Shown piece by piece: positions 1,448 to 55,469 of a stretch of DNA of 64,000 nucleotides; the stretch's first letter is position 1; the number at the start of each line of letters is the position of its first letter. The stretch is from Prorocentrum cordatum (taxonomy: Eukaryota), in assembly GCA_963575745.1 (NCBI GenBank), contig CAUYUJ010000001.1, forward strand, positions 3,038,001-3,102,000. The letters run 5' to 3'. The position numbers and the translations under genes are program-made. The notes beneath the pieces were generated by a model, which did not search any database, was not told where the DNA came from, and saw nothing but the letters and a program-made list of their open reading frames with translations.

Positions 1448-1470
1448 CTTGAGCCAAAAATGGCTACGGT
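1448..1470 (-). promoter_or_regulatory. DinoSL spliced-leader relic, near-perfect
   Basis: Minus strand reads ACCGTAGCCATTTTTGGCTCAAG, the canonical SL plus one T, 30 nt upstream of the transposase ATG. Confidence 0.95.
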
Positions 1471-2266
1471 GTTGCCGCTGATGTTTATGATTTGAACTGT
1501 CGGCGCAGGGTTGTTGCGCCCCGCGTCAGCAGTGTGCAATATACCGTTGCTAGCTATGGGGCCGTTTGCTTGCTTGCTCGCTTAGTTTAAGTTGCTGCTC
1601 TGGTTGATGCTGAATCGCTCTTGCTGGAGCGTTGGTGTGACTCTTAGTTCTTGCCACGATCGTTGATGCTGCTATGTTTGATGCTGAATCACTCTTGATC
1701 CGATCTCTGATGCTGCTCTTGCTTGGATCGCTGGTGTAGCTGGCTTCTTCACTGATGCGCCCTGCTGCTTGGGCGCGTGCGACGATGCGACTGCCGTGGC
1801 GCGCGGCTGCTGCCACCCGCCATTGTTGTGACGCAACGCAGGGCGCCGAAAGCTCCCCAGCCCAAACGAGGCAGGACAGGGGCAGCGAGGGTGCGGAGAC
1901 AACCATTTCTCACCAAAAGGCCAACGCAACATGGGTGCTTGCATCCGCAGCTGCCTTCCCCTCGCCCTCCTCCTCCTCCTCCTCCTGCCCCTCCCACGTG
2001 CTCCGCCTCCTCGCCCGCCTCCCCTCCCTCCTCCTCATCATCCGTACACCTCCCCACCCTCCTCCTTAGCCCTCCCCCACCCGAACCAACCTAGGCCCCC
2101 GCCTCCCTCGCAGGCGATGTGGGGGCAGGGCAAGCCGCGATCCTGTAGCGGGCTGCGCAGAGAGGCACGCGAGGTGGGGAGTAATATAGAAGCGAGTCCC
2201 CAAATGGCTTACAATACTCTCCTCGCAGCGTGCTATCAGAAATGCGCAGGGTGAGCACTAAACAGC

Positions 2267-4651
2267 TCAGCTACCGTCCCAGGCCTCACTCGCCACGCGG
2301 AATCCCCACTGAGCGACCTCGCGCACAGCCGCTGCGGGCAGCCCACCCGCGCGGGCCTGGGTCTGTGCGCGACTGTAAGCCCTCGATGCGAACGTGTTGC
2401 GGTCCCTGCCCTCAATCGAAGCCTTCGTGATGACGTCGGCAATGTTGATGAAGATCCCGTTCCTGATCATGGTGCCTTGGGGGACATGCGGGTCTGGGGC
2501 AGGGGGGAAGGGGACGAGGACGAACGAGGAGGGGAGGGAGGGTGGCAGGGGCAGGGAGGGGGGCGTGAGGGAGGTCAAGAGGGAATGGAGACGGGGGAGG
2601 AAGGCGACGACGACGACAACGGTGAGAAGGAGAAAGGGGATGGACGTGGGATGTGAAGAAAGCTCCGTGGAGCTTCGAAGGCACCCAGGGGGGAGGGGCA
2701 GCGCTACCCTATGGCTACCCCATGGGCGCCCACTGGGAACTTCCGACACCTCGTAGCTACCCCGTCGTTCAACCCCCCGCTGCGCGCTGGCAGTGCCACG
2801 CGTCGCCCTCCTTCTTAGCACCCTCCCTCGCCTTCGCCTCTTAGTCCCCACATCCCTCCTATCCTCCTCCGCATTTCCCTTGTCGCCATTATCCCCCTCC
2901 CCGCACCCCTACCTACTCTTGCTCCTGATACTCCTCATCACCCTCATCCTCGTCATCCTCCTCGTCAGTACCCTCACCCTCATCATTGCCATTGCCGCAC
3001 CCCCCGTGCCTTTCGCCATTGCCCCCGAGCCTTTCGCTGCCTTAGCCATGGGAGCACGTGCAGCCTCCTTGGCCGCGGCGGCTTTAGCCTTGGCCTTGCC
3101 CTTCGGCTTGGCCTTGGCCTTGGCCTTGCCCTTGGACGAGGCCGTCTGCGCGGGCGCGCTCTCCTCGGGCTTGCCCTCGTCGAACTCGACCTCCTCGGCG
3201 GTGCCCGCTGCCGCGGGCCTCTTCTTGCACCTGTAGTTGCTACCAGCCGCCTCCGCTGACCTGTTGAGCTTCTCCTCCAACTCCGCCGCGGGGTCGTGAG
3301 CAGGCAACGGCGCCAGACCAGGCGCCCGAGGTCCACCATGATGCGCGTCGCCGACCGCGGCAGGAACCACGGCCCCGCCTGCACCAGGTGCGCCGCCCAC
3401 CTCGGCAGGCACCAAGGCCGTGCCTGCATCAGGCGCGCCGTCGCCTGCAAGAGGAGCCGCGGCATCGCCTGCACCATGTGCGCCGCCGAGTGGAGCAGGA
3501 ACCACCGCCCCGCCTGCACCGCCAGCCGTCTGAGGCGGCGACGCGGCGCTCGCACCAGACAACTGCGAGTCGAAGCCGCTGAGGTCCTGCTCGGGGTTGG
3601 GGCCGCCCGCCATCGGAACCGCCGATGCACTCAGCGTCCCGACGCCCGAACGGGCAAGGCTGGATGCTGGCGAGCGCTTCGGCGTCGGCCTCGCGTAGCT
3701 GATCGGGCAGCCCCCCCCTTGGGCAGACCCGCCCTCGCTCGATGAGCCGCCCATCAACTGCTGGACTAAGGGGGCCATCCGCATGATGAACTGCATGCCC
3801 TGCATGGCGCCCATCCCTTCCATGCCCATGAAGCCGCCGCCGCCGCCGCCAGCCCTCGGAGGAGCGCCCGCTGGCACCAGGGCCGAGCACGGGCTAGCCG
3901 AAGTGGTATGCCTCGGCTGCAGGGTGTTGTGGCTCCTCTTGCAACCGAACGCCGTGACCTCCGCGTCGAGGGCCGCCGTCGTCACTGACGCTGGCAATGC
4001 GGTAGAAGGTGCGCCGTCTGAGTAGGCGTAGTCGTAGACAGCAGTGGGCAAATCCGATGGGGCGTCAACGTACCTTTTGATATGCTGACCTGGCCAAGTC
4101 TGCTGTTTGTCGAGGCCCTTGATGTAGCCCTTCAGCGTGGTGCACCACTTCTTCTTTGTATCGGGGGTAGCGCCGTCGCTCTCGGCAGGGAGCCCGCACA
4201 ACGTCACAATGGCAACCACGCGCTTGACCAAAGGAATCGAAGGGCACGTCACGCCCAGACGCCATAGGCGCTCCGCCAAGACCTGGAGCTTGGCCTCGAC
4301 CGACAGGCCCGCGTCCTGAACGCAAGTCCAGTCGTGGTCTGTCAAGCAGCTCTCCACGTAGTTCATGGTCTGGTTCTCCCTGGCAGCTTTCTGCTTCGGT
4401 TGGCCACCGCTGTTGCCGACTGCGGTGGCGAGTCTGGCCATCTGCTCCTGTGTCCACGGCCCCGAGCTGAGCTCCGTGGAAACCGCAGAGATGTCATCGA
4501 TGGTGAGCGGCCCCGCGTTCCTCAAGTCGACCAGGAACGCATCCGACTGGGCGACCAGCAGGCTGTCTCGGTCGATCCCAGCCGCCGTCTGCGACGCGAC
4601 GAGGGACACCCACGACCTCAAGGTGGCAATCAGGTTATCGCTCACGGGCAT
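2267..4651 (-). CDS. Hypothetical cargo protein: globular N-terminus, Ala/Gly-rich linker, KKRPAA and (KA)n basic tail; exons ~4651-3010 and ~2475-2267
   Basis: Long non-repetitive ORF from ATG 4651 (MPVSDNLIATLRSW). GC-AG splice AAAG|GCAC...CAAG|GCACC joins in frame to GTMIRNG...ASRAYSRA...WDGS*. Confidence 0.65.
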
Positions 4652-4718
4652 TGGGCGGCTGGCCAAGGCGCCTGGTGCGAAGGGCGCAAAGTCTGGAACT
4701 GGCAAGCCTGAGACAACG

Positions 4719-4740
4719 CTGAGCTAAAAGGGGCTGCGGG
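4719..4740 (-). promoter_or_regulatory. Degenerate DinoSL relic
   Basis: Minus strand CCCGCAGCCCCTTTTAGCTCAG, about 70 nt upstream of ATG 4651. Confidence 0.7.
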
Positions 4741-5505
4741 GTGGGGCGGGGATTAGAAGGCGGAGGTGCGTGGTGGATAAGGGGTGGGCACAACCGCCAC
4801 CACGCTCTCCCAAGGAATATGCGTCGAGCGCGCGCGTTATGCGCTGGGCGTCATCTCGGGCAACTTATAGGCCCCTCTCGGGGCCACGGCCGTTTTCGAA
4901 TGGGGTCCGAACCTGATGTCCCAGACGCATCTCGACACACCGCGACACAGGGCACGCGCTTCGATCATGTGGCGGTGCATCGTCGGGCCCCCCTGCGTGG
5001 GCCCCTCGGCACATTATCGGGCCACCGCGTGGCTCAAAGGGACCGCCGCGCAAGTCAAGTCGCAAGCACGCCGCAAGACGGCCCCCCCCAGTGCGATGGG
5101 GCCCTCATCCTACGATGGGCCCCTCGTCCTCCCTCTCCTCATTATTGCCATCATCCCCACACCCCCCTTATCACAATCCTCCTCATCCTCCTCCTCCTTA
5201 TCATTTCTCCTCCGCCTCCTCCCCCTCGGCTTGACCAGGTCTCCACGGCTGTTCAGTCTCTGACCCCTAGACTCCTCCTCCTCCTCCTCCTCCTCCTCCT
5301 CCTCGCTGCCTCAGCAACTCTCTCTCGCAACGGGCGGAGCGCGGCTCGCGAGGGCCGGCCTGCGGTGAAGTTGGTGAGCACCCCGAGCGGCGAGGGAGCG
5401 GCGGGGTAGCGGCGAGAGAGCGGGCGCATGCGGCAAGAGAGCAGCGGGCGCGGTGATCGCTGCTTCGTCGCCGCCGTCGTCGCCGACACTACTGCCCCTC
5501 CCTGC

Positions 5506-5778
5506 GTAGCTCACTCACCAGCCCGAGTGAGCTACATGTGGTTCGATCGCCGACCCAAGTGAGCTACATGTGGTTCACTCGCAGGCCCAAGTGAACTACG
5601 GCACACCCTTATCAATAGAGTAGCTCACTCGCGCTGGCGAGTGAGCTACATGTAGCTCACTTGCCAGCGCGAGTGAGCTACATGTGGTTCACTCGCGCTG
5701 GTGAGTGAGCTACGCCAGATCTTACACCCTACAGCTCCTCCGCGTAGCTCACTCGGGCTGAGGAGAGGTGATCTACAT
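5506..5778. repeat. Array of short hairpins GTAGCTCACTC-n-GAGTGAGCTAC
   Basis: More than ten copies of the GAGTGAGCTAC motif in alternating orientation, often joined by AT. Confidence 0.9.
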
Positions 5779-6441
5779 ACGACTCGCACGATCGACGATG
5801 TGTGACTGAGGGGTCAGTCACACGTCGCACGAGCCCCTCGGATGGGTGCACCTAACTGGGATGAGCATCACTGGCCCTGGACGGGCCCGCCAGACAAGGG
5901 CGCCTCTCCGAGCCAACACCCCGCAGGCTCCAGGGATCAGGGCTGGCATCGTGCTGGGAGGGCTGCTCGCGGCCGCGATCGGGCCGTGAGCCAAGGGCAT
6001 ATCCTCGAGCCGACTCCGGCGCGCCCAATCGACGACGACGACGACGACGAACGACGACGACGACGAACGACGACGGCGGCGGCGGCGGAGCGGGATCAGA
6101 CGCAGTAGCAGGAGCAGGGGGATGGTGATGGGAGGTGGTCCAGGGGGGGGCGGCGGGGGAGGCCGAGGGCTCAGAAGGAGGATGGGGAGGATGAGGACGA
6201 GGAGGAAGAGCAGGAGCAGGAGCAGGAGGACACGGAGGAGTGATTTAGCCATAGCGCTGCTACGCACATGGGTCGCACCACCAGCGACTGTGTCAGATGC
6301 TCTCCGAGCTAGCATGGGCAATGCTCCGAGCAACTCGCTCGGCACGGCCTCGCACAACGCACTTACGGCGCAGGCGAATCTGAGCCAGCGCATCTGAGAA
6401 CTTCCGCGAGCTGCTGCGCTCGCGCGGCACGGGCCGACCTC

Positions 6442-6924
6442 TCAGCGCGACCTGAGCGAGGTCGGCACGAAAGGTACTGGGATCGGAGCGTCCGTGACCC
6501 CAGCGGGCCTCCTCCTGATGGGCGCAGCATTGCCCTGTGCCGCCGCTGCCCTCGCCGAGGCCTGGTACGCCGCCTCCGCGTGGGCCGCCTCTGCCGCCCG
6601 CCTGTCCTCATCCAGGGCGGCCCTGAACGCCTCGATGCCGTACTTCGCGTTCATATCCTCCTCGCTCCTCTTGGCGATGTCGGCGATGGCCTTGGACGCC
6701 TTGCCGACGGCGCCAATGACCTTGTGCTGATGAGCCTCCGTGATGTTCAGCTGGTGCTGCCCGAGGTAGTCCGTGCACCTAGTGATGCCCTCGGCCTTCT
6801 TGGTGATCGACTTGCTGACGCGGCCGCGCTCGCTGAGAAGATCGGACTGCCGATGCAACTTCGACTTGACCTTCTCGAGCTGGAATTTGAGCTGCAGCTC
6901 GCGGCCCGACTTCTTCGGCGGCAT
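6442..6924 (-). CDS. Small basic coiled-coil hypothetical protein (160 aa)
   Basis: MPPKKSGRELQLKFQLEKVKSKL...IRRRPAG..., intronless, SL relic upstream. Confidence 0.65.
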   Translation of the reverse strand: MPPKKSGRELQLKFQLEKVKSKLHRQSDLLSERGRVSKSITKKAEGITRCTDYLGQHQLNITEAHQHKVIGAVGKASKAIADIAKRSEEDMNAKYGIEAFRAALDEDRRAAEAAHAEAAYQASARAAAAQGNAAPIRRRPAGVTDAPIPVPFVPTSLRSR

Positions 6925-6975
6925 GGCGCAGCCTCGCGAAACACACGTATGGTACTGCGTATGGACGAGCACTGG

Positions 6976-7004
6976 CTTGAGCCTTGAGCCTAACTGGCTA
7001 CGGA
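6976..7004 (-). promoter_or_regulatory. DinoSL relic plus partial second relic
   Basis: TCCGTAGCCAGTTAGGCTCAAG (20/22 match) immediately followed by GCTCAAG. Confidence 0.9.
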
Positions 7005-7147
7005 GGAGGAGGGAGGAAGGATTGTGGAAGGGGGGTCTCGCCCCGTTGCAACTATGCCGATGTTCGACCATCTCGCACCCCCTGTGTATCCAGTCTGCGG
7101 TGGATATCCTCCCGACATACAGCATATTGCGGGGCGGTTGCTTTGCC

Positions 7148-7456
7148 CACCACATAGGTTGCACCAGATAGCTGACACCACATAGCTTGCACCACATAGC
7201 TTGCACCACGTAGACCGCGCCCCATAGATTGCACCACATAGCTTGCACCGCATATATTGCACCACATACAATGCACCACATTGATTGCACCACATAGCTT
7301 GCACCACATAGCTTGCACCGCATATATTGCACCACATAGACTGCACTACATATGTCGCACCACATAGATTGCACCGCATAGCTTGCACCATATAGATTGC
7401 ACCACATAGAGTGCACCACATATACAGGACCACATAGATTGCACCACATATATTGC
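7148..7456. repeat. ~14-17 bp minisatellite (TTGCACCACATAG-like)
   Basis: About 20 tandem degenerate units. Confidence 0.9.
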
Positions 7457-8063: not shown

Positions 8064-8967
8064 CTACTCCTTGGGAGGCTCAGTGCGGTGCTGATGCCTC
8101 CACTCGAGCAGCGCGGCAGCCACTTTCTCTGCCGCGGACTGCATCGCCGCCTCGTCGGCCAAGGTAGGTACCTTCATCGATTTGTTAAGCCATTTGGCTT
8201 TGTCAGCATCGAAGTAGGGAACCGAGAGCGCGTGGCGGTAGCCGAGCCACGTCACAAGGCCGTCAGCGAGCGTGGGCTCCCATTCGCTCGGGCCCTGGAC
8301 ATCCTGAGGCTTCATCGTCAAGGCAGCCAAGTTCTCGGGGGGCAACTCGATATGCAAGTGCGAGCGGCGCATTGCCGCCGACCTGACGTTCATCGTGTAG
8401 TCCAACCCCCACTCGTCTGTCACGGTGATGGAGACGTAGCCTGCGGGCGTAATGCGGGGGGGCGGGGGGGGGGGGGGGGATCGCGAAGGGGAGGAGGGTG
8501 AGGGGAGGAGGAAGGGGGGCGGGGGCGGGGGCGGGCGTGGTGGGAGGAGGGGCGTGCAGGGCGACAGGATGAATGGGGGGAAAGGTGAGGGGGCATCGGG
8601 CGGGGCAATGGGATCAGCAACGGCACTCGCAGCAAACAAACAAATAATAATAATTCGGAGCGCCCGCGATCATGTCCAAGGCATCCTTCTTGGCAACCTT
8701 GGCAGCTGGGGGGGCGGCTTCAGCATCTTCCGCTGGCTCCTGAACAGCAGCGATGAGGGGGTCGCACTTCTCAGAGCGCTTCCGATGCATCTCGTCGAGC
8801 ATGTCGAAGCCATTAGAACAGAAGTGGCGAAACCCAGAGTCGAGCCGATCGCAGAGAACCCACGTCCTGTTGTCAGCGGACACCTTCTTGGCAAACCAAG
8901 TCTTCGCCCGAGGTGTATTTTCGTCGGCGGCGATCGCAACGAAGCCGTCCTTGATCGAAATAGGCAT
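8064..8967 (-). CDS. Hypothetical cargo protein, 2 exons (8967-8664, 8440-8064)
   Basis: MPISIKDGFVAIAADE... A GC-AG phase-1 intron (8663-8441) joins ...DMIAG|YVSITVTDEWG... in frame. The intron is low-complexity like the others. Confidence 0.7.
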
Positions 8968-9045
8968 CTCGATCCTGCGGCAGAGGGGAAAGATCTGAGA
9001 GAGTAAGTCCCTTGCACTAGGCGGGTGCGAATTTGCCAAAGACGG

Positions 9046-9066
9046 CCTGAGCCAAAAACGGCTGCA
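9046..9066 (-). promoter_or_regulatory. Degenerate DinoSL relic
   Basis: TGCAGCCGTTTTTGGCTCAGG, about 80 nt upstream of ATG 8967. Confidence 0.8.
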
Positions 9067-9944: not shown

Positions 9945-12900
9945 TCACCTCTTCCTCTTGGGGGCGGGAGCGGCGGGGCTCCCCGAGGGCTCGTCGTCTG
10001 CGGCCCTCTTCGCCTGGTCTGGCTTCAGGCGAAGCAAAGCAGTGTCTTTAGCCACCACCTTCGAATTAATCAAGCACGGCACCGAAACAGTAACCTTTGT
10101 GCCGCCGTCGTTCGAACCAGGCGTGCACTCACGATGCAACTCCACTTTGACCATCCCGTCAGTCATGTTGACATCTGCTTTCTTCTCAGTAAAGGGGACC
10201 TCCCAAAACGGAGCCAGGAACGCTTTTCTCTTGCCCGCGGGGCCCTTCGTGGGCCAGATCTGCGTGGGGGCCACGTACGCCACGTGGTTCACTGGGAGGC
10301 CGTCGAACTTTGGCAGTGCCACCGCACCAGACGGGACTTTCGTCGACTGCACAACGTTGCACACGTTAGAGACCGCAACGAGGACGAGGGACCCCTTCTC
10401 ATATTTTTTGTTGGACACCATCTTTTTGACATCAACCTTAGCCCCAGGGCCACGGCTAAACAGGATGCCCACGTCGACGCCCTGGGCGTTGCTCCCATAG
10501 CCAATATGCACGGCCTCCTTCGCGAGCAGGGACGCCCGCAGCACGGAGGCTTCCAACGTCTCCTCGGGGGCGGGTGGGTGGCAGTAAGAAGTCTGGATAT
10601 CTTACCAGGGGAGCGGCAGGCAAAAAGCCGGCTTTTCACAAAGGACTCCCCCTCCTCCTCCTCCTCCTCCTCCCCCTCCACCTCCTCAGCCCCATCCTGA
10701 TGGTGGGCGGGGCACGCCAACAAATCTAAATCAAACCACGCGCGTTTTGGTTTCGTGACCGCCCCCCCTCGTCGCCCCTCCCCACGTGGCGAATCGATTA
10801 ACACAGCCGTTGTCCTCGTACCCTGCATTTCGAACGGCATTGAGTATGTCGAGCAGATCGGGTCCCGCGATTTCGCCAGGACCCTCGTGTGGGGGGACCT
10901 CCTCGCCGCATCCCCCTCCCCGCCAGGTGCGCGGGCGGGGTGCTGATTGCCCTCGTCCTCCCTCTCCTTGCTATACCCCCCATCCTCCTCGCCCTTCCCG
11001 CCCACCGCTATCTTCCCCCTCACCTCATCCTCATTACCCTCCTCATTGCAATCCTCACCATCATCGCCCCACTCTGCATCCATCGCCTCGCCCTCGTCAC
11101 CATGCACATCATGATCATCCCTCAACGCCCCCCTCCGCATCATCGCCCCGCACCCACACGCCCGCCCCCGTCCTCGCCCACCCTCCCTCATGCCACGTCT
11201 GCCCCTCCTCCCTCTCCGCCTTCCTCGCCCTCCTCCTTCTCGTCATCATCCTCGTCCTTCTCCCCTCCCATCCTCCTCCTCCGCTTCCTCTTACCCCTCC
11301 GTTATCCTTCCTCATCCCCCATCCTCTTCTTCCTCTCCTCATCATCATCCATCTCAGCATCTTCCTCATCTTCCTCCCCCTCATCATCATCATCCTCATC
11401 CTTTTCATCCTCCTCATCATCACCCACATCCTCATCATCCTCCTTCTCATCCTCGTCCTCATCATCACCCCTCTCATCCCCTATCCCCTCCCCCCCCTCC
11501 TGACACCCAGCCCCCACTCCCCCTCCTCTCCACTACCTCCCACCCCCTCCCGCGGGAGTCCGTCAAGGCAGCCCCCGTGATGTCGAGCCGCTCGGTCTCC
11601 GCCTCGGTCACCACCTGGGGTCAGATAAAGGATGGATGGTGCGAGGGGGAGGGGGAGGGGGGGGTGCGAGCCCCTAAGTCTCTCGGCCTCATGCGATCTG
11701 CCTCGGGTGCTCGAACACGCACCCTGATTCAACAACATGTTGCGAGGATGTCTCTACGCGAAATGCCCACGTCATCTCGCGCGTTGCGAGGATCTCTCAG
11801 GCGAAACTCCTCATGCTCCCCCGCGTCGTCGTGCCCCCGACCGCGCGCGCTACAATCCTAACAGTCAATAATAAGATGAGCAGGTATGACCGTCGTCGTC
11901 ATCGTCGCCGTCGCCATCGTCAATCCTCAGCTGCATTATCGTCGCCATCGTCATCATCGCAAGCCCCGCATTGCCCCTCATTGCGGTCATCCTCATCCTC
12001 GTCGCGTTTTGCTTACCCAGCGCAACCTTGTACAAGTCGACCAACTGCGCGACCTCGACCTCCACGGCGCCCCTGGCGGCCTCGCTGACGATGCCGTCCT
12101 TGATCAGCCTGAGCTTCACCTTATCGGCGGCCGAGTCGCCCATCTCGCCGACCTTCCACTGGCTCGGCCCGTTCTTGCCCTTCTGGTCGTCGGGCACCGT
12201 CTTGAGCTCAACCTTCACGCCCGTCTTGTAGCCCAGCCCTTTGACGACATCCATGTTGAGGCCACCTGCTGCTAGCTCCCGAAAGCCACTCTGGCTCTTC
12301 TTCTGACCAGACTTGGGCGACTTCTTCTCGGGCTGGGTCCAAGGTGGCGTGACCCCCTTGGCCTCTGGCGCCGCCAGGTACACACTGTCCAAGAACTCGG
12401 CCGCAATCTGGTCCAAGCAGGTGTCGGTGTGCGCAGGCTTGTTGGGGGCGGCCTTCGTCAGCAAGTACATGATCGCGTCGACCTCCATGTCCCCCTGGAG
12501 CCTGGTGAAGGTAGACCTACTCAGGTTCACGCCAGCCTTCAAAAGGTCATTCTCGTACCAGTCGCTTGATACCCTCACCTTGCACGCCAGCTCCATCAGC
12601 TCCTTGCGCTTCTCCTTTAGCAACGTCGCGATGTCCGAGCTGTTCAGGAGCTTGCTCGTCGTGGTCCCCGTGTGGCAGTGCTTGGGCGGGGAGCGCATGG
12701 CTGCCTTCACCATGGCGTACACCACCTCAGGCATGCTGTCAAGGTCCACGTTGCTCAGCATCTTGAACATGGTCCCAGGGATCTCCGCGCGATGGCGAAG
12801 CGTCTTCGCCCACTCCGAGAGGGAGGCCAAGAACTTGCCCGTGTCCCCGCCGCTCCAGCGCTCGACGAACGCCGTCATGTCCATCACCTGGCCCTTAAGG

Positions 12901-13670
12901 TACGGCCTCGCAAGTTCGATGCTTGCCGCAATCGATTGCCATCGAAAATCTCCGTGCTGATCTACGCTGGCCTTTCCTTTGCGGTGGAGCTCGAGAAGAA
13001 CCTGAATATTTGTAGCGACGCGTTCGGTATCGGCGCCTGTGTTCAAAGCTTCCTGGATGTACGCTGCCAATCCTGGGAACTTTACGTCGACTTGCCACCG
13101 AATAACTCGCCACCTGAATCCGTGCGCCACTGCATCTGCATAGTCCGAGTTGACCGCCCTCACTTTGTCGAGTGACAAATGCCCGTCCGTAGCGAAGTCG
13201 TCCAAGAAAGTTGAACAAGCATGGGAAACCGCGTTCAGTCCTGCAACCGTGTGGCTGCCAGCCACGCTGAGGAAATGAAGGTTCTCCTTCCGAACTGGGC
13301 TCAACATGCCGTCGCTGCTGGCCGCCAGCTTGTGATTCCAGGTGAAGGGCTCATCGGACCGAGGGTCCACTTCGAAGCACACCGAGCCGATCGTCTTCTC
13401 GCCGATCCATCCTTGCTGCAACACCCTATTCACCAGGCAATGCACGTCGTACGGGTCCAGGCCGTCCCCGTCGCGATTGGACATGTGGGGCCGAACCTCG
13501 TCGTTAGGGATGATGCGGTCGTAACACAGGTCGTGCGCTTTCAGAACCTTGAGCAAGTTCTCGCACTTGGAACCGAGCTGGCCCACCTGCACGTTCTGGG
13601 AGCCCATGGCCGCGAGCGCCTGCGTCACCTCGCCATCCACAAGTTTGAGGTTATCCTCAACCGACGGCAT
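9945..13670 (-). CDS. Large protein with ParB/Srx-like N-terminal region and SET-like C-terminal region; exons ~13670-12027, ~11614-11561, ~10562-9945
   Basis: N-term VRPHMSNRDG..DVHCLVNRVLQQGW...SVAGSHTVAGL resembles ParB-N (PxNR..L..I...G / GxHR). Last exon APFWEV...VNM...VPCLINSKVVAKDTALL resembles the SET C-terminal N...I..GEEL pattern and ends in PKRKR (NLS-like). Internal exon boundaries are uncertain and include a possible GA donor. Confidence 0.6.
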
Positions 13671-13747
13671 GGGCCTGGCACAGAAGTCAACCGTGGAGCC
13701 CGCAAGAGAAGCTCGGGCACAGCAACTCACAAACGGAATCAATGCAA

Positions 13748-13771
13748 TTTGATCAAAAATGTGGCGACGGT
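13748..13771 (-). promoter_or_regulatory. Degenerate DinoSL relic
   Basis: ACCGTCGCCACATTTTTGATCAAA, about 80 nt upstream of ATG 13670. Confidence 0.7.
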
Positions 13772-13825
13772 ATAGATGAAATTGCAGAAGTGCGACCTGT
13801 TTTCTGGGAGGGGGCACCCCGTCAG

Positions 13826-13882
13826 CTCTCATGGGCATCGTTTCTGGATGGGCTGGTGGACATACGCGAAGCGTGGAGAATT
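13826..13882 (+). mobile_element. Helentron-type 3' terminus (subTIR GGGCTGGTGG + ACGC-GAA-GCGT hairpin + AATT)
   Basis: Matches reverse-complement copies at 63935-63991 and 56424-56458. Confidence 0.6.
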
Positions 13883-14735: not shown

Positions 14736-14749
14736 GCTAGGGAAAGGTG

Positions 14750-45273: not shown

Positions 45274-48200
45274 TCACGCACCGCCGTGAGCCGCCTCGGA
45301 GACGACCGCGTCGCCCTCATTCCAGCGGCCTGCCATCGACGGCTCCTGCGTATCAGGCGGCCCACCGCCTGGCTCGCAGCCGAATTGCTCCTCCTGTGCG
45401 ATTAACTGCCCGCTGCCCTCGGGCGCGCCGCTGGCTGCCGCGGCGCCGAGCATCCCGCCGCCTTGTCCGTGTCCGCGCTGCTCCTCCTGGGCGCAGGGCG
45501 GCCCGCCGCCCTGGTGCGCGCCGCTGGCCGCCGCGGACGCGTCGATATCCAACAGCTTCTCCATATCCTGGGTCAGGTGGCACACCTTCGCCTTCTTCTG
45601 GGCCGTCTCAGCCTCGTCCTCATCGCTCGAGCGGCTGCGTTTCGACGCAGCCGCGAACGCCTTGATCGTCTCGCCACCCGCTGCCTTCAAGGCGATGCGG
45701 ACACCGTGCGTCTCCCAGACGTGGCCGGCCACCGAGTCGAACAGTCCCGCGATGTCGGGCATTGAAGGCATGGCCACGTACATGCCGTCGAACACCAAGC
45801 TCAAGACGCACGCTTGCAGCCCCTTGGCAGCAGCAGCCATGCTCTCGAGAATCTCGTCTTCCTTCGTCTGAAGGTACAGCGCCAGCGCCGAGGACCCTGG
45901 ATGCGCCTTCTGCAACACCTTCTCCATGGATGCAGCCTTGCGGTTCCTGGAAGTCCTCGCGTCGCTAGCGGCCCGTGCCGCCGCGGCGGGGCTCGCCGCG
46001 GGGAAGCAGCGAAACCTGAAGCCACGCGCGGTCGGGCAAGCCAGCGGCAACGTCGAATTCCAAGACCTCGCCTTCTTGTAATTGTCACACTCGGCCGCGA
46101 GGGTCTCCTGGCCACGCCTGAAAGCGCTCCTCAACTCCATCAGGCACGGCAGCATGTCGTCGGAGCGATCGCCTTCCCAGGATGCATCAGGCTGAATGCT
46201 GCCCTTGAACGGCAGCCGCGAGAAGATCGCCTTGGCCTGGGGCACGTCGATGTTATAGTACTGGGCAACGTCGGAGCGCCACTCTTTGGATTTGTCCGCG
46301 TACATCTTGACGATCCCAAAGTCACGCTCAATGGCGCCATCCGGAACGTGTGGCCGCAGCGCCTGCAGGAGTATCTGGTAGAACGCCGCAATCATGTCGA
46401 ATTCGCCCACGGCGAGGCCCTCGAACGCGACGACTCGCGTCTCTCGGGTGCAAGACTGAAGCCCTGGGCCTGACTCGTGCGCGCGGCCGATCTCGTCGAG
46501 CTGGTAATACTCGCGCCGAAGGACGCGGATGTCTGGGCACCCTGGCTCGGAGGTCGGGCGGAGAAAGCCGTCCTTCATGGTGCAGGCCTGGCCCGCCTCG
46601 TTCAGGAGATCCACGTGCGCGGACAACCCCTCCTGGCGACGCTCGCCCGTGACGGCAGCCCCAGCGTCGCGCCGGGCCCGCAGCGCGGTCAAGTTGGCTG
46701 CCTCGCAGACGGTGTAGCGGCACATTCGGGTCGGCACTTCAGCTTCGGCGGGCTTGGCGAGCGCGTCCTCGGCGGGGGCGAAAGCGTCGAGGGACAGGTT
46801 GTACGTGTACTCCGCGAGGTCGCCGAACGTGGCGGTGTCCGAGAAAAACTGGTTGTACAGCGACGTGTCGAAGGGGAGTGCGGTCACGCACGCCTGCATT
46901 CTCTGCTTGCGTGACTTCGCGGCCCCGATCTGGGCGAGATTGGCCCCGAGGCGACCTTGCGCGCGGACGTGGCCCAGGAGGACAGCCCACCGCTTCGTCT
47001 TGGGGGCGGCTAGTGGCAGATCGCACCTGGTCTGATCCACCTGGCACTGCAGGAGGGCGCGGGTCCTTGACGCGTAGAGGCGAGCGTGGATGTCCTGGAC
47101 GAGCGCGAATGACTCCCCGTTCACCTCGCCCTCGTGAGCGCCGTCGCCGTCCACCCTGCTCCACTCGGTCATCCACGCCTCGAGCCAGTGCGCCGTCGTC
47201 TTCGTCCCTGTCGCCGCCAGCTCGTGCAGTGAGAGGCCTCCGCCCGAAGACGCAGATGACCTGATGGTGAGGAGGTTGAGCAAGTGGCCAATCGCGAACT
47301 CGGGCCTGCCGATCTCTGCCTCGAGCCCGTGGTCCTTAAGGAAAGAACGCGGCGACGTGGGGGCGTCGAAGGAGTCGCGAAACTTATTCGGCATATACAT
47401 CGGCAGCAGGCGGTCGCGCTCCGAGCCCTTGGGGACCTGCTCCCACGATGGGATATCGTTGCACGCGAAAATGTAAGTGCACATGGGCTTCATCTTCTCG
47501 GTTTCGCCTGAGTTGCAAGCGCGGGCGGTGATGGGATCGGTAGAGTTCCTGCTCTTGAAGACAGCGTTGCTCCAAGCCGCGGAATGCACCTCGTTGCCGA
47601 AGGCTACGCGAAATCCTCGACGAAAGGCGTCCGCCGCCTTGTGCTCGTGCTCGGAGCGCTTGTCCGCAGTGAAGACTGTGGCTCGGACAGGAACGTAATA
47701 CTCCCCCCAGGCAGCCTGGAATATCTTTTCGCAGATGCCCTTGCCATTGCGGCCCCGCCTAGACCACAGCAGCGCGCACTTGCAGAGCGGCGTGCCTTCG
47801 AGAAGGCGCGCCTGCAGATGCATCATGTGCTGGAAGTTCTCCGCGTCTGCGTCCCCGAGCTCCTCCGCGCAATCGTCGGGGTGATGGTCGCCCTCGCGCT
47901 TATATAGCGACCGCAAGATCGACCATGACCTCTGGCGGTCGCTGGCCGACTCGGATTCCACGAGGTCGGAATTCTGCAGCCACCTGTTGCCGAACGCGAC
48001 TACCCTGCACCAGTGCCTTGAAACACGCGTTCGCCTTCTCTGTTTCACACAATTATTCCCCGTTTGAACCGCCCGAACCTGTCGAAAACCCATTGTCTTT
48101 TATACATTTCCTAAACGCACCGTCGCGACGACAACGTCTACGGGCGCGCCAGCAAGGGCGCAACTTCATGAAACAATGCAAAAACCCATGGTTTTTCAAC

Positions 48201-48948
48201 GATACGGGCGGTTCAAACGGGAAAAACGCTGCGTTTACCCACACCCATCCGCGCATCGTCCCCCCTCTTCCTTTACGTTCACGGCCGCCCGCCTTTGAGG
48301 CACGCGAATCGGGCTGCGCAGGGAAGTCATGTCTGTCGGGCGGCCTGGACGGATGGTGTTCGAGCGGAGGTCCACCACGCAATTGCTGAGCTGAAAGAGG
48401 TACGGGTCCAAGTCGAACGCGGCCTCCCCGTCGAACAGCATGGCAGATTCTCTGATGTTCTTCTCCACGCCTTGCTGGCACTCCAGCGCCGCCGCCGCCT
48501 TGTCCAGAAACTGCTGCTTGGGGTGGGGGTTGCCATCCTCGCCATCCCCAAAGCATTTCTCTGCGCGACAGCGCCTGGCAACCTCCTGGACCACGGGAAG
48601 GAACCTCGCCTGGAAGATCGCCTTGACCCTCGTCAGCGATCGCTTGACAACGCGCCGCGTCTGGTCCCACACCCACCAGTCGTCATCGCGGCTGCAGTAC
48701 ATGATCGGGCATTGGTCCCTTTGGAAGAACAAGTAGGCGAGCTGCGCCTGCAACAGCTGCGACAAATTGTGGTAGTCTGGCAACTCCTTGTAATATACAT
48801 ACAGGAGGCTGGTCTTTGGGGCGTTTGCGTGCTGGGCAAGGAACTCGTCGAGGCGGCCAGTCAGGGACGCATTCGTCGTTCGGGCTGCGGCAGCCACGAT
48901 GCGACTCCACTCGGCCCGCGGCGGCTCCGGCGGCAACATCTGCGACAT
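45274..48948 (-). CDS. D5-like SF3 helicase with C-terminal TV-Pol-like (family A-related) polymerase; exons 48948-48293, 47983-46072, 45936-45274
   Basis: D5_N: DLDPYLFQLSNCVVDLRSNTIRPGRPTD. Helicase: Walker A RRGRNGKG, Walker B VAFGNE, motif C IFACND, RDRLL. Polymerase: IGRAH...LQSCTRETR..GEFDMIAAF (A), AKAIFSRLPFKG (B), LQTKE..LSLVFDG (C). Two predicted GC-AG introns; the first is required to keep the frame. Confidence 0.85.
47984..48292 (-). other. GC-AG intron containing a MITE-like inverted repeat
   Basis: CCCGTTTGAACCGCCCG (48059-48075) is inverted at 48205-48221; a sibling lies at 51173-51335. Confidence 0.7.
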
Positions 48949-48974
48949 GGCGGTGGCCTGGCAATGTATTTGGA

Positions 48975-49683
48975 TATTCGGGTATTCGGGTATTCGGGTA
49001 TTCGGATATTCGGGAATTCGGGTATTCGGGTATTCGGGTATTCGGGGATTCGAGTATTCGGGTATTCGGGTATTCGGGTATTCCGGGTTTCGGTATTCGG
49101 GTATTCGGGTATTCGGGTATTCGGGTATTCGGGTATTCGGGTATTCGGGTATTCGGGTATTCGGGATTCGGGTATTCGGGTATTCGGGTATTCGGGTATT
49201 CGGGTATTCGGGTATTCGGGTATTCGGGTATTCGGGTATTCGGGTATTTGCGCGTCCACTCCACCTCCTCCAATGTCCGACTGCCCGAATACCCGAATAC
49301 CCCCGAATACCCGAATACCCGAATACCTGAATACCCGAATACCCGAATACCCGAATACCCGATTACCCGAATACCCGAATACCCGAATACCCGAATGATA
49401 CCCGAATACCCGAATACCCGAGTATCCGAACACCCGAATACCCGAATACCCGAATACCCGATACCTGAATACCCGAATTCTCGAATACCCGAATACCCGA
49501 ATACCCGAATACCCGAACACCCGAATACCCGAATACCCGAATACCCGAATACCCGAATACCCGAATACCCGAATACCCGAATATCCGAATACCTGAATTC
49601 CCGAATACACGAATACACGATACCTGAATACCCGAATACCCGAATACCCGAATACCCGAATACCCGAATACCCGAATACCCGA
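48975..49683. repeat. Inverted 8-mer satellite pair (TATTCGGG)n / (CCCGAATA)n
   Basis: Orientation flips across a ~35-nt spacer at 49249-49282. Confidence 0.95.
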
Positions 49684-49789
49684 GGAAGGGGGATGGCAGG
49701 GAAGCGTCCGAACCTCCAAGCTCAGGCGTTGGCGATTGTCACGCCCGGGCCGTGGCGGGGCAGTGGTCCGCGCCCGCGAGGTAGGTTCT

Positions 49790-51101: not shown

Positions 51102-51120
51102 CTTGAGCCGCGACGCCTGC
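51102..51120 (-). promoter_or_regulatory. Degenerate DinoSL relic
   Basis: GCAGGCGTCGCGGCTCAAG, about 58 nt upstream of ATG 51044. Confidence 0.45.
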
Positions 51121-53680: not shown

Positions 53681-53727
53681 TTTGAGCCAACGCATTAGAA
53701 TAACCTGAGCCATGAGCCCCGCTGTGG
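53681..53727 (-). promoter_or_regulatory. Two partial DinoSL relics
   Basis: CCACAGCGGGGCTCATGGCTCAGG and TTGGCTCAAA upstream of the transposase. Confidence 0.45.
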
Positions 53728-53949
53728 GAAAGGTAACATTTAGTAACTAACCGTTGTGCCGCTTGCAATTGGCGTTGCGTGCGTTTGCCGCCCCCGCCCC
53801 GCCCCGCCCCGCCCTCTGCCCGACCCGACCGTCGTTTCTCTCTCTGCCGCGAGCGCCCCCTCGCTCCGGCTTCTAGGTCGCCTGCCGGTGCGCCAGAACC
53901 ACGCCGACCGCCTGGAAGGCGTCTGGTGGCTTCGGCCTCAAGCGCAAGC

Positions 53950-55437
53950 CTAAGTGCCCGTTGGGGAGAGAGAGAGCAGCCTGTCCTGGCGCCTCAGCTG
54001 CGCCCTCACCGCCCTGTCGCCAGTAGTCCTGAGGCGGCCCTTCTCGTTGTCAGCCCTGTTCTCCCACCGCCTGAGTTCGCAGCAGAGGTCCTCGAGGTGT
54101 GAGATTGTGAAGTCTCCCACCCACAAGCTCGGGTCTACCAGCCTCGGCTTCACCAGCTGGAGCAGGGCTCGGAGGCGCTTCGAGTTGTCGGGGTCGTGCG
54201 CGGTGCAACGGCGGAGCATGGGAGGAGGAAGACAACGCAGGTCGGGTCTCTTGCCCCCTCCCCCCCCGCCCGCCCACCCACCACCACCACCACCACCGCA
54301 ACCACGCCCACCCACCCACCCACCCACCCGCCAACCCACCCACCCACCCACCCACCCACCCACACCCACACCCACACCCACACCCACACCCACACCCACA
54401 CCCACATACACGCACACACACAGACACACACACAGACGCGCACGCACCCCATGCCAACTTGGCTTCTCCAGTTGCCGAAAGGGGAAGGAACGCCAAGTGA
54501 GCCGACCTGCATTGATTTCCTCCTCCCCGAGGACCGCCTCTGCGCCCTCCCCCACAAAGTCGTTCTCCGCTAGGGTGAACCCGTTGGCAGCCTTCGGGCG
54601 GACAACAGCCAAGTCGCGAGACATCAGCATCCTGTGCCACTCGGTGTGCACGAGAAGCGTCTTCTCGAGCACGACGCCGAGCGGCTGCCCCTTCTCCAGC
54701 TGCCGCGCCGCCGTCGTGAAGCGGCTCTTGCGCATGAGCTCGGCGACGTACTTGGCCATCGCCTGCTTCTGCTGGTGCGCCCCTCTCTGGCCCGCTTGGC
54801 GCGCGTGCTCCGCGTTCCAGAAGGTTCTCTGGTACCCCGCGTAGGCCTGCCTGATGGTGGTGTCGTCAACCACCGAGGCGAAAGCGCTCTCGTCGAAGCA
54901 CCTGCCCTCCGCGAAGGCTTGCCCCGAGCGCTCCTCGTAAGTCGCCAGTGCCTTCTGTAGCAAGCCCTCCCCGTTGAACCAAACCCTGGTGAGCAGGATT
55001 CTCTGGAGCACCGAAGGAAGGGGCACTTTTCTGGAGTCGTGCAGCACCGTGCGGAGCTCCAGGTCGGTGGAGTTGAGCTCGTGCGAAGCCTCGCCGCCGC
55101 GGTGTGTCAGCCACTCGGGGTGGACGAGGAAGGACGTGACCAAAGGGTTCTGCGCCAACCTCGAAAAGAGTTTCTCGGCCACGCTGCGCCCGTGCAGCTT
55201 TTCGATTGAACTCACCGCCCTGGCGTTTGCGAAGGCGACCAAGCTGTCCACCTCGTCGTCACGCGCGCGCGCGCCGCGCCGGAGCCCTCCGACCTGACGC
55301 TCGGCAGCGCCTTCCCTCCGCTGTCCACCATGATGCCGACAGAGGGGCAACCCGTCCTGCCCTACGCAGTTGGTACGGTGGTACCCTGTGGGGCCCGCTG
55401 CCCCTCGGGCTGGGCACGGCAACCAAGTCGGCGGCAT
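53950..55437 (-). CDS. aGPT-Pplase / amino acid:DNA transferase-like (5hmU hypermodification, HhH-glycosylase-like fold) protein with N-terminal C...CxxHGG finger; intron from 54506 to ~54250/54210
   Basis: ILLTRVWFN (cf. lfRxFN), MLMSRDL...FVGEGAEAVL (cf. Dl...GpGA..gl) and HLEDLCCELRRW (cf. iEhxLCExxKy) occur in the expected order. The intron acceptor is unresolved. Confidence 0.65.
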   Translation of the reverse strand: MPPTWLPCPARGAAGPTGYHRTNCVGQDGLPLCRHHGGQRREGAAERQVGGLRRGARARDDEVDSLVAFANARAVSSIEKLHGRSVAEKLFSRLAQNPLVTSFLVHPEWLTHRGGEASHELNSTDLELRTVLHDSRKVPLPSVLQRILLTRVWFNGEGLLQKALATYEERSGQAFAEGRCFDESAFASVVDDTTIRQAYAGYQRTFWNAEHARQAGQRGAHQQKQAMAKYVAELMRKSRFTTAARQLEKGQPLGVVLEKTLLVHTEWHRMLMSRDLAVVRPKAANGFTLAENDFVGEGAEAVLGEEEINAGRLTWRSFPFRQLEKPSWHGVRARLCVCLCVCVYVGVGVGVGVGVGVGVGGWVGGWVGWRVGGWVGGRGCGGGGGGGWAGGGGGGKRPDLRCLPPPMLRRCTAHDPDNSKRLRALLQLVKPRLVDPSLWVGDFTISHLEDLCCELRRWENRADNEKGRLRTTGDRAVRAQLRRQDRLLSLSPTGT

Positions 55438-55447
55438 GTCCAACTAC

Positions 55448-55469
55448 CTGGAGCCCAATCGGCTACGGA
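55448..55469 (-). promoter_or_regulatory. DinoSL relic
   Basis: TCCGTAGCCGATTGGGCTCCAG (18/22 match), 10 nt upstream of ATG 55437. Confidence 0.85.

What the first reader, a model, noticed from the sequence alone, without database searches (positions are those of the whole stretch)
1448..55469. A spliced-leader relic upstream of almost every mobile-element gene
Seen: sense-strand SL-like motifs at 1448, 4719, 6983, 9046, 13748 and 55448 (good) and at 49790, 51102 and 53681-53727 (weak). Most lie 10-200 nt before the ATG, including before two DNA transposases. Established: relic SLs are read as footprints of mRNA retroposition in dinoflagellates. Inference: one relic per gene in compact, intron-containing TE clusters suggests either gene-by-gene assembly from cDNAs or a retained cis-signal (trans-splice acceptor AG, T-rich promoter box, or SL mimic) that expresses TE cargo.
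Basis: partly seen in the sequence, partly recalled or inferred. Interest (0 to 1): 0.8.

Follow-up and report, generated by a model that had tools for sequence, protein, structure and literature searches.

The report
Spliced-leader relics before transposon-cluster genes
Six dinoflagellate genes, five of them neighbours in a transposon-like cluster, carry a DNA copy of the spliced-leader tag just before their start codons, which is a known footprint of mRNA being written back into the genome rather than a new kind of signal.

Summary
The six "good" motifs are real. All lie on the minus strand, in the sense of minus-strand genes, 11-80 nt before the first ATG, which opens an ORF of 117-601 aa. 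Three (1448, 6983, 55448) are significant on their own. Three (4719, 9046, 13748) are background-level as bare matches and are credible only through shared context. Of the weak sites, 49790 is noise, 51102 is marginal and 53681-53727 is plausibly a decayed relic array.

The window matches Prorocentrum cordatum. G1 is a probable CACTA/Plavaka-clade DNA transposase from a very large family. G2 is its conserved upstream partner ORF. G5 and G2 paralogues carry consecutive accession numbers on another contig. The cluster is therefore an inherited multigene unit, not an assembly of separate cDNAs.

At least four tagged genes keep an intervening segment or intron, and no spacer shows a poly(A) trace. 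I read the relics as ordinary dinoflagellate "mRNA recycling" footprints, probably installed at each gene's 5' end in place and then inherited as DNA.

"Almost every mobile-element gene" is overstated: the D5-like primase-helicase has no credible relic, and only one transposase was found. The promoter, acceptor and mimicry ideas are already published and remain untested here. Unexplained: all six genes start ATGCC (Met-Pro).

The parts
1448..1469 (-). Relic DinoSL no. 1. It is the full 21-nt leader with one extra T (T5 run) and ends 30 nt before the G1 ATG at 1417.
   Evidence: d=1, 0 of 200 shuffles reach d<=2
1..1417 (-). G1, a probable CMCT-clade (CACTA/Plavaka-like) DDE transposase. Exon 1 runs 1417->~818, an intron of ~223 nt covers 817->595, and exon 2 runs 594->1 off the window. 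The second Cys of the family's invariant C(2)C is Arg in this copy.
4719..4739 (-). Relic DinoSL no. 2 (d=5), 67 nt before the G2 ATG at 4651. Of the 25 nt upstream, 20 are pyrimidines.
2279..4651 (-). G2, the partner ORF of the transposase. Its own annotated model is P0004 (100% identical, same ATG). The first exon starts at 4651 and the last conserved exon is 2497->2279.
6976..7003 (-). Relic DinoSL no. 3 (7003->6983, d=2) followed by a second copy of its last 7 nt (GCTCAAG, 6982->6976). It lies 58 nt before the G3 ATG at 6924. Of the 25 nt upstream, 22 are pyrimidines.
6445..6924 (-). G3, a 160-aa basic ORF with coding-like codon usage. No homologue was looked for beyond Pfam, PHROGs and L001-L003.
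9046..9066 (-). Relic DinoSL no. 4 (d=6). It contains the exact 10-mer TTTTGGCTCA and a T5 run, and lies 78 nt before the G4 ATG at 8967.
8617..8967 (-). G4, first ORF of 117 aa. A possible further exon lies at 8453->8067, judged by codon usage only.
13748..13770 (-). Relic DinoSL no. 5 (d=6, T5 run, internal AG lost), 77 nt before the G5 ATG at 13670.
9951..13670 (-). G5, a ~770-aa protein of unknown function with several loci in P. cordatum. Exon 1 runs 13670->~12009, a low-complexity intervening segment of ~1.4 kb follows, and exon 2 runs 10571->9951.
55448..55468 (-). Relic DinoSL no. 6 (d=4), 10 nt before the G6 ATG at 55437. Of the 25 nt upstream, 21 are pyrimidines.
53876..55437 (-). 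G6, of unknown function, with relatives at 90% (P0182) and 79% (P0183, P. cordatum). An intron at 54528->54220 contains a GT microsatellite.
53683..53718 (-). Possible decayed relic array with three GGCTCA copies and the 9-mer TTGGCTCAA. It lies ~165 nt before an ATG (53516) of a coding-like ORF series (53516->51655).
51102..51109 (-). Marginal site. It is only the last 8 nt of DinoSL (GGCTCAAG), 58 nt before an ATG at 51044 (190-aa ORF, ATGGA).
45277..48930 (-). D5-like primase-helicase gene (D5_N plus phage-primase profile matches) with no credible SL relic. The reported site at 49790 is at background level.

Best explanation
[quoted passage not shown] They are 5' ends of trans-spliced mRNAs that were copied back into DNA, the process known as 'mRNA recycling'. 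Each now sits in the 5'-leader position of a minus-strand gene.

Five of the tagged genes (G5-G4-G3-G2-G1, 14 kb) form a multicopy, inherited gene cluster. Its last two genes are the conserved two-ORF core of a CACTA/Plavaka-clade DNA transposon.

Most likely route (inferred, not shown): each relic was installed at its own gene, in place. A 5'-complete cDNA, possibly made from trans-spliced but incompletely cis-spliced nuclear RNA, recombined with or replaced the 5' part of the resident copy. The tagged element was then multiplied and inherited as DNA. This keeps gene order, keeps 3' introns and leaves no poly(A).

Present-day function, such as the relic's own pyrimidine-tract-plus-AG acting as trans-splice acceptor or the T-run acting as a promoter box, is possible but untested.
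For: SHOWN.
- Near-exact DinoSL copies occur on the genes' sense strand: d<=4 at 3 sites vs 0.14 expected.
- All six relics lie 11-80 nt before the first ATG, which opens an ORF of 117-601 aa. This holds for 6 of the 20 d<=6 sites and 0 of the other 14, against a per-position chance of 0.016.
- For G1, G2 and G5 that ATG aligns with the start of homologues. G6's relative P0182 starts 29 codons further in.
- G1's exon 1 matches 2106 50%-identity clusters.
- The family alignment has invariant D119, C239-x2-C242 and H474-x3-H478, and >=90% D220 and E496. This is the C(2)C and H(3-4)H signature between the 2nd D and the E that defines the CMCT clade (passages of PMC12730594).
- The nearest named Atlas clusters are Plavaka and Transposase_21.
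- A G2 homologue (BLASTP E 1e-26) lies directly upstream, on the same strand, of a G1 homologue in environmental loci L001 and L002. The third locus, L003, is cut short upstream. The three loci are near-identical and count as one relative. No DinoSL match better than d=6 is present there.
- G5 and G2 paralogues have consecutive accession numbers on one 307-kb contig.
- An intron, or in G5 an intervening segment, lies 3' of a long first exon in G1, G2, G5 and G6.
- No A-rich tract is present: 0 tracts with >=10 of 12 A, and at most 8-9 A per 15 nt in five 3' spacers.

PUBLISHED (passages read).
- 22-23% of Symbiodinium genes have a relict within 500 bp.
- The best-kept relicts lie at -50 to -100.
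- Intron-containing retrogenes and insertion near the parent gene are both described.
Against: - No RNA data could be obtained, so nothing shows where transcripts start or where a new SL is joined.
- No paralogous DNA could be fetched (no genome held). The age, conservation and presence of relics in other copies are therefore unknown, and the in-place route is inference only.
- Three of the six sites (d=5, 6, 6) are individually at background level.
- G3 and G4 rest on ORF and codon usage only.
- The transposase assignment has no Pfam hit at threshold, and no structure could be predicted.
- Adjacency of the paralogues is inferred from consecutive accession numbers.
- Later intron gain after ordinary retroposition cannot be excluded.
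Confidence: 0.6

Rival explanations
1. Gene-by-gene assembly: each gene is an independent, classical retrocopy (SL-mRNA-poly(A) reverse-transcribed and inserted), and the cluster was built from separately landed cDNAs.
For: There is one relic per gene. Edit distances range from 1 to 6, which could mean different ages. Published work says retrogenes tend to land near their parents.
Against: The G2->G1 order and orientation are the same in a distant relative without relics. G5 and G2 paralogues are neighbours elsewhere. An intervening segment or intron is present in at least 4 of the 6 genes. No poly(A) remnant is present, even 3' of G3, whose relic is only 2 edits from DinoSL.
Confidence: 0.12
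2. Selected cis-signal: the relics are kept by selection because they work now, as a ready (Y)n-AG trans-splice acceptor, a TTT(T/G) promoter box or an SL mimic. They let transposon genes be expressed wherever the element lands. This is compatible with the best explanation for their origin.
For: Of the 25 nt before the relic, 20-22 are pyrimidines at 3 of 6 sites, against a background mean of 12.5 and a tail of 1-3%. My Fisher combination of the six tail values gives p of about 0.002; this is rough because the windows are autocorrelated. The internal AG is kept in 5 of 6 relics and a TTT(T/G) in 4 of 6. All six lie within 10-78 nt of the ATG, near the -50 to -100 zone where published relicts are best kept.
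Against: No part of the relic is clearly better kept than the rest. The best-kept relic (SL1) has no pyrimidine tract (10 of 25). It precedes a transposase copy that has lost an invariant Cys. Edit distances of 1, 5, 2, 6 and 6 fit a single neutral rate; my chi-square gives p of about 0.15. No expression data exist.
Confidence: 0.25
3. Template-switch concatemer: a reverse transcriptase jumped from the SL end of one mRNA to the 3' end of the next and made a head-to-tail SL-gene array in one event.
For: The SL-gene units are same-strand and tandem. The most A-rich 15-mer of the G2->SL1 spacer (9 of 15 A) lies just upstream of SL1.
Against: No poly(A) lies directly before any relic. Random switching would not be expected to reproduce the ancestral G2->G1 order. 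Spacers of 0.8-1.7 kb lie between units. Introns are present.
Confidence: 0.03
4. Chance or repeat-derived look-alikes, or SL RNA genes or pseudogenes, rather than relics.
For: Counts at d<=6 equal the shuffle expectation (20 vs 21.5). Some SL-like 8-9-mers (34430, 32574) sit in degenerate CCAAGA-type repeats.
Against: The d=1, 2 and 4 sites never arise in comparable numbers in shuffles. All six share the first-ATG, long-ORF and ATGCC context. Only 1 of 6 is followed by GT, each is followed by an ORF, and Rfam gave no match.
Confidence: 0.03

Closest known systems
Relict DinoSL-tagged 'recycled' genes of dinoflagellates (Song et al. 2017, PMC5585692; review PMC6050394; Slamovits & Keeling 2008 as cited there; Stephens et al. 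2020, PMC7245778). I read passages only.
   Same: A DinoSL copy lies on the sense strand within 500 bp upstream of the ORF, mostly tens of nt from the ATG. Intron-containing cases, insertion near the parent gene and T-run retention are all described.
   Different: Here five consecutive, unrelated genes of one inherited multigene unit are each tagged. The unit contains a DNA-transposon core. No poly(A) is present, and pyrimidine tracts directly precede several relics.
DinoSL upstream of virus-derived genes in Symbiodiniaceae, with the 'SL mimicry / TTTT promoter' proposal (Benites et al. 2022, PMC9651163; passages read).
   Same: SL copies lie before foreign or selfish genes (13 of 59 viral-HGT genes).
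   Different: Those genes derive from RNA viruses and lie near retroelements. Here the genes belong to a DNA-transposon-like cluster, no viral relatives were found for the G5 family or for P0007, and a relic precedes every gene of the unit.
Two-ORF CACTA/EnSpm and Plavaka transposons, CMCT clade (PMC12730594; passages read).
   Same: The family shows D, D, C(2)C, H(3)H, E order, a conserved second ORF upstream of the transposase and a very large copy number.
   Different: No Pfam hit reaches threshold. The termini and target-site duplications were not seen. The window copy has Arg in place of the second C(2)C cysteine. Three further genes (G3-G5) travel with the core.
cDNA-mediated gene conversion or intron loss and cDNA capture at DNA breaks, described in yeast (recalled; no paper read).
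   Same: It would write processed-RNA sequence into the resident gene without moving it.
   Different: It has not been demonstrated in dinoflagellates. Here it would have to add a non-homologous 5' leader and leave 3' introns.

Membership tests
Relict-DinoSL-tagged (recycled mRNA) gene | Match to the 21/22-nt DinoSL on the gene's sense strand beyond chance | tested here: met
   d=1, 2 and 4 at 1448, 6983 and 55448: 3 sites at d<=4 vs 0.14 expected, and 0 of 200 shuffles reach this. The other three (d=5, 6, 6) are supported only as a group by context.
Relict-DinoSL-tagged (recycled mRNA) gene | Relict within 500 bp upstream of the ORF (criterion of Song et al. 2017) | tested here: met
   6 of 6 lie 11-80 nt before the first ATG. 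The start is confirmed by homologues for G1, G2 and G5.
Relict-DinoSL-tagged (recycled mRNA) gene | At least a 9-nt exact piece of DinoSL (minimal hit of Song et al. 2017) | tested here: inconclusive
   Met by 3 of 6 (1448, 6983, 9046). 55448 has 8 nt. 4719 and 13748 have shorter pieces. Window-wide there are 12 such sites vs 3.8 expected, with a shuffle maximum of 11.
Relict-DinoSL-tagged (recycled mRNA) gene | Classical retrocopy marks: no introns, a poly(A) remnant and target-site duplication | tested here: not met
   An intron or intervening segment is present in G1, G2, G5 and G6. No A-rich tract is present. Duplications were not searched. The dinoflagellate literature does not require these marks.
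Relict-DinoSL-tagged (recycled mRNA) gene | Transcripts that carry a new SL followed by the truncated relic | not testable with these tools
   No RNA run was listed and no genome is held.
CMCT-clade (CACTA/EnSpm-Plavaka) DDE transposase (G1) | [quoted passage not shown] | tested here: met
   In family alignment A1 (50 full-length members), D119, C239, C242, H474 and H478 are invariant, and D220 and E496 are >=90%. The window copy keeps both D residues and DWMH but reads C-M-L-R in place of C(2)C. H(3)H and E lie off the window.
CMCT-clade (CACTA/EnSpm-Plavaka) DDE transposase (G1) | Profile match to Pfam Plavaka (PF18759) or Transposase_21 (PF02992) | tested here: not met
   No hit for G1. 0 of 16 and then 0 of 50 members reached significance; one member gave Transposase_21 at E 0.15. 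The Atlas feature search places Plavaka and Transposase_21 clusters nearest, at 0.90-0.94. That is a lead only.
CMCT-clade (CACTA/EnSpm-Plavaka) DDE transposase (G1) | Terminal inverted repeats (5'-CA..TG-3') and 2-5 bp target-site duplications | not tested
   The 3' end of the element lies beyond the window. In L002 only subterminal inverted repeats were noted, for example 467-485 with 6134-6152.
SL RNA gene | SL exon followed by a GT donor and an intron, without a protein ORF | tested here: not met
   Only 1 of 6 (55448) is followed by GT. All six are followed within 80 nt by a long ORF. Rfam gave no match.

The most novel reading that the evidence does not exclude
A CACTA/Plavaka-clade DNA transposon lineage of a dinoflagellate has fitted every one of its genes with a spliced-leader-derived 5' cassette: pyrimidine tract, relic with its internal AG, short leader and an unusual ATGCC start. 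The cassettes were acquired by in-place cDNA conversion. They are kept because they let each ORF be cut out of host polycistronic transcripts and translated wherever the element inserts. This would be a selfish element that has domesticated the host's own mRNA-recycling footprint as portable expression signals.
Probability: 0.2. Interest if true: 0.65.

Novelty: new member of a known kind. Interest (0 to 1): 0.35.

Why it matters
Relict spliced leaders are the standard marker of RNA-mediated gene duplication in dinoflagellates. This locus shows the marker in front of each gene of an inherited multigene unit with a DNA-transposon core, with introns retained and no poly(A). If the pattern is general, part of the reported ~20% of "retrogenes" may be resident genes whose 5' ends were overwritten by cDNA, not new copies. 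That would change estimates of retroposition rates and ages.

The locus also gives a concrete place to test whether relics act as trans-splice acceptors or promoters. It adds a large, Pfam-invisible transposase family with a conserved partner ORF to the dinoflagellate mobile-element catalogue.

Tried and rejected
- **RNA evidence:** no RNA holder was listed for window 4400-14100.
- **Whole genome:** none is held. Paralogous DNA, genome-wide enrichment and cross-copy conservation could not be done.
- **Earlier findings:** three look-ups returned nothing.
- **Six-frame Pfam scan:** I scanned ORFs instead: 148 ORFs of >=170 aa, 17 selected ORFs and 79 more. The third set was ORFs of 90-169 aa outside 14.5-31.5 kb after a low-complexity filter (73 of 247 kept), plus 6 longer ORFs from 62-64 kb. 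The only hits were D5_N, spurious repeat hits and a weak PIF1 match.
- **PDB sequence searches:** P0001, the A1 profile, the 941-aa ORF and three + strand ORFs gave nothing meaningful.
- **PHROGs:** only the primase matched.
- **Structure prediction of the transposase family:** the job failed once and was then not accepted, so there was no fold test.
- **Metagenome scans:** the A1 alignment had no conserved stretch. G1 exon 1 found nothing. P0042 gave L001-L003.
- **Viral contigs:** no relatives were found for the G5 family or P0007. The method has limited sensitivity.
- **Rejected as relics:** 34423-34445 (-), 34471 (+) and 32574/32881 (-) lie in degenerate CCAAGA-type repeats.
- **Left open:** 34655-34698 (+).
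- **Rfam and tRNA scans:** these were uninformative.
- **P0005 vs the L002 ORF:** the full-length comparison aligned only the C-terminus (E 0.002). The N-terminal comparison with the window's G2 gave E 1e-26.

Full report
**What is there**

The window is GC-rich eukaryotic DNA. One of its gene products is 100% identical to an NCBI protein named Prorocentrum cordatum, and others are 66-79% identical to proteins of that species. No whole genome is held for the window.

All the reported motifs are reverse complements on the + strand, so they read as the dinoflagellate spliced leader (DinoSL) on the minus strand. I first typed the DinoSL sequence CCGTAGCCATTTTGGCTCAAG from memory. It was then confirmed in the methods of three papers.

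Edit distances to the 21-mer are as follows:

| Site | Edit distance | Note |
|---|---|---|
| 1448 | 1 | one extra T |
| 6983 | 2 | |
| 55448 | 4 | |
| 4719 | 5 | |
| 9046 | 6 | |
| 13748 | 6 | |

**Is it more than chance?**

I compared the counts with 200 dinucleotide-preserving shuffles, both strands:

| Threshold | Observed | Expected | Shuffles reaching the observed count |
|---|---|---|---|
| d<=4 | 3 | 0.14 | 0 of 200 |
| d<=5 | 6 | 2.19 | 4 of 200 |
| d<=6 | 20 | 21.5 | no enrichment |
| d<=7 | 136 | 168 | no enrichment |

Three sites therefore stand on their own, and three do not.

Context changes this. At each of the six sites the first ATG downstream (+11 to +80 nt) opens an ORF of 117-601 aa and reads ATGCC. 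A random position in the window meets these three conditions with probability 0.016. Among the 20 sites at d<=6, the six reported ones meet them and none of the other 14 does. My binomial arithmetic on these figures gives about 7e-7.

By the published minimal criterion of a 9-nt exact piece, the window has 12 sites against 3.8 expected, with a shuffle maximum of 11. Several of those lie in unrelated repeats.

**The weak sites**

- **49790:** d=7, followed by an (8-nt)n tandem repeat, with no ATG within 400 nt. This is noise.
- **51102:** only the last 8 nt of the leader, 58 nt before an ATG that opens a 190-aa ORF with positive codon-usage score. GGCTCAAG occurs 6 times on the minus strand and 0 times on the plus strand, against 1.68 expected per strand. 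Two of the six are repeat-borne. This site is marginal.
- **53683-53718:** three GGCTCA copies within 36 nt, an arrangement seen in 3 of 600 shuffled strands, plus a 9-mer. It is plausibly a decayed multi-relic before a coding-like ORF series.

**The genes**

None of the six tagged ORFs has a Pfam family.

*G1 (1417->1).* Exon 1 matches 2106 50%-identity clusters at E<=1e-3, of which 663 are at <=1e-10. Full-length members are about 650-730 aa. They map to the window as exon 1 (1417->~818), an intron of ~223 nt, and exon 2 (594->1), which runs off the edge.

An alignment of 50 full-length members has invariant D119, C239-x2-C242, D331-W-x-H334 and H474-x3-H478, and >=90% D220 and E496. [quoted passage not shown] The nearest named clusters in the protein atlas are Plavaka (0.92-0.94) and Transposase_21 (0.90-0.91).

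Against this assignment, no Pfam profile matches. In a scan of 16 members, 0 had a hit. In a scan of all 50, none was significant, and one gave Transposase_21 at E 0.15. I could not obtain a structure. The window's copy reads C-M-L-R where the family has C(2)C, so it may be inactive.

*G2 (4651->2279).* This is the annotated protein P0004, with the same start codon. It has a conserved last exon at 2497->2279.

*G5.* Exon 1 runs 13670->~12009 and exon 2 runs 10571->9951, separated by ~1.4 kb of low-complexity sequence. It has relatives at 66% and 45% identity, and members of its family's clusters lie on at least three other P. cordatum contigs.

*G6.* It has relatives at 90% and 79% identity. 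It has an intron at 54528->54220 with a canonical-looking GGTGAG donor, read by eye from the translation.

*G3 and G4.* These rest on ORF length and codon usage only.

*Other mobile-type genes.* Elsewhere on the minus strand, 48930->45277 encodes a D5-like primase-helicase (Pfam D5_N at 1.4e-9; PHROG DNA primase at 2.7e-13 and 8.2e-07). It has no credible relic. A weak PIF1-like piece lies on the + strand at 41.6-42.0 kb. Much of 14-34 kb is satellite and microsatellite DNA.

**The cluster is an inherited unit**

Three near-identical environmental contigs, which count as one relative, carry a G1-family ORF at 38% identity. In the two contigs that extend far enough upstream, a G2 homologue lies directly upstream on the same strand (BLASTP E 1e-26, 27% identity over 248 aa from residue 2). 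No DinoSL match better than d=6 exists in these loci, and none lies on the gene strand.

In P. cordatum itself, the G5 paralogue and the G2 paralogue carry consecutive accession numbers on one 307,255-bp contig. G2-G1 is therefore the two-ORF core of a DNA transposon, and G5 travels with it in at least two places.

So do the intervening segment or intron in at least four of the six genes, and the lack of any poly(A) trace. There are 0 tracts with >=10 of 12 A on the minus strand in either cluster, and at most 8-9 A per 15 nt in the five 3' spacers. This includes the spacer 3' of G3, whose relic is only two edits from the leader.

**How it most likely came about and works**

Shown: these are leader copies in 5'-leader position of genes that belong to an inherited, multicopy, transposon-centred cluster.

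Established in the literature (passages read):
- Such relicts arise when SL-bearing transcripts are reverse-transcribed and re-integrated.
- 22-23% of Symbiodinium genes have one within 500 bp.
- Intron-containing cases exist.
- Insertion is often near the parent gene.
- Relicts at -50 to -100 are the best kept.
- A TTT(T/G) promoter role has been proposed.
- SL copies before virus-derived genes, and an SL-mimicry idea, are also published.

Inferred: gene order, 3' introns and the absence of poly(A) are best reconciled if a 5'-complete cDNA overwrote the 5' part of each resident gene in place, and the tagged element was then propagated as DNA. The long intron-free first exons (0.6-1.7 kb), followed by the intervening segment or intron, fit this, but later intron gain cannot be excluded.

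A present function is possible. The 25 nt before the relic contain 20, 22 and 21 pyrimidines at 4719, 6983 and 55448, against a background of 12.5 +/- 3.6. Together with the relic's internal AG, kept in 5 of 6, this looks like a 3' splice site.

However, the best-kept relic (1448) has no such tract. TTT(T/G) survives in only 4 of 6. No sub-motif is clearly better kept than the rest. Without RNA or paralogous DNA I cannot separate selection from neutral decay.

**Unexplained**

All six tagged genes start ATGCC (Met-Pro). Pro at position 2 occurs in 8 of 149 G1-family proteins that start with M. The published dinoflagellate start context is RCCAUGGCN, which gives Met-Ala (section 4.2 of PMC6027434).

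The more distant paralogues of G1, G2 and G5 start Met-Ala. Two closer relatives start Met-Pro: P0006 for G1 and P0182 for G6, the latter from a Met 29 codons further in.

Three unrelated genes of one element lineage thus share the same +4 G-to-C difference. I have no tested explanation for this.

**Comparison and novelty**

What may be new is the setting: a relic before each gene of a DNA-transposon-centred unit. One full-text search for DinoSL with "transposable element" and "transposase" gave a single paper holding all three terms. The passages of it that I read did not describe this. That is one search, so it is not proof of absence.

I file the finding as a new member of a known kind, of moderate interest.

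Noticed in passing
ATGs at window 1417, 4651, 6924, 8967, 13670 and 55437 (minus strand): All six relic-tagged ORFs begin ATGCC (Met-Pro). Pro2 occurs in 8 of 149 G1-family proteins, the published dinoflagellate context is RCCAUGGCN, and distant paralogues of G1, G2 and G5 begin Met-Ala. This is a concerted +4 G/C difference across unrelated genes of one element lineage and is unexplained.
   Followed up: partly
window 1448-1469, 9046-9066, 13748-13770 (minus): Three of the six relics have a run of five T where the canonical leader has four. This could be slippage or a variant SL donor.
   Followed up: no
window 34655-34698 (+): A plus-strand SL-like motif (CCGTAG...GCTCAAG, d=5) is followed after 6 nt by a second degenerate piece (CCATCCTTGGCCCGAG). 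It lies ~425 nt before the next ATG, at what looks like a switch from minus-strand to plus-strand ORFs.
   Followed up: partly
window 45277-49700 (minus): A D5-like primase-helicase gene (D5_N and phage DNA-primase profiles) abuts ~0.8 kb of 8-nt tandem repeats in both orientations (GGGTATTC / CCCGAATA). These repeats gave spurious 'Cornifin' Pfam hits.
   Followed up: partly
window 14,200-31,200 and 57,900-58,900: There are large blocks of simple and satellite DNA: GGCTGAG-type repeats at 16.1-17.9 kb; a 77-nt satellite at 22.2-24.1 and 25.6-27.3 kb; a 12-nt repeat at 27.6-28.1 kb; and TAC/CAC microsatellites at 28.5-31 kb with an inverted counterpart near 58 kb. Many long ORFs there are repeat artefacts.
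   Followed up: no
L002:300-6150 (also L001, L003): An environmental two-ORF element (G2-like ORF, then G1-like transposase ORF of 726-811 aa, intronless) has subterminal inverted repeats, for example 467-485 with 6134-6152. It is a candidate complete DNA transposon of this Pfam-invisible family.
   Followed up: partly
proteins P0006, P0007, P0165: P0006 is 79% and P0007 44% identical to the window's G1. P0165 clusters at >=90% with the P. cordatum protein P0001, a G5 relative. All three are filed in a public protein set under a green alga's name (Pyramimonas sp.), which may reflect cross-contamination of that data set or shared elements.
   Followed up: no
window 616-722, 1941-2087, 2794-3026, 5170-5321, 9553-9644, 10638-11532: Introns and spacers of the G1-G5 cluster share CCTCCTCC-type low-complexity tracts, purine-rich on the genes' sense strand. 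The G5 intervening segment consists almost entirely of them.
   Followed up: no
window 31,600-34,500 (minus): Degenerate CCAAGA(C/T)NGC-type repeats mimic the 3' end of the leader (GGCTCAAG at 32574 and 34430). A duplicated ~105-nt unit lies at 32,510-32,616 and 32,824-32,930.
   Followed up: yes
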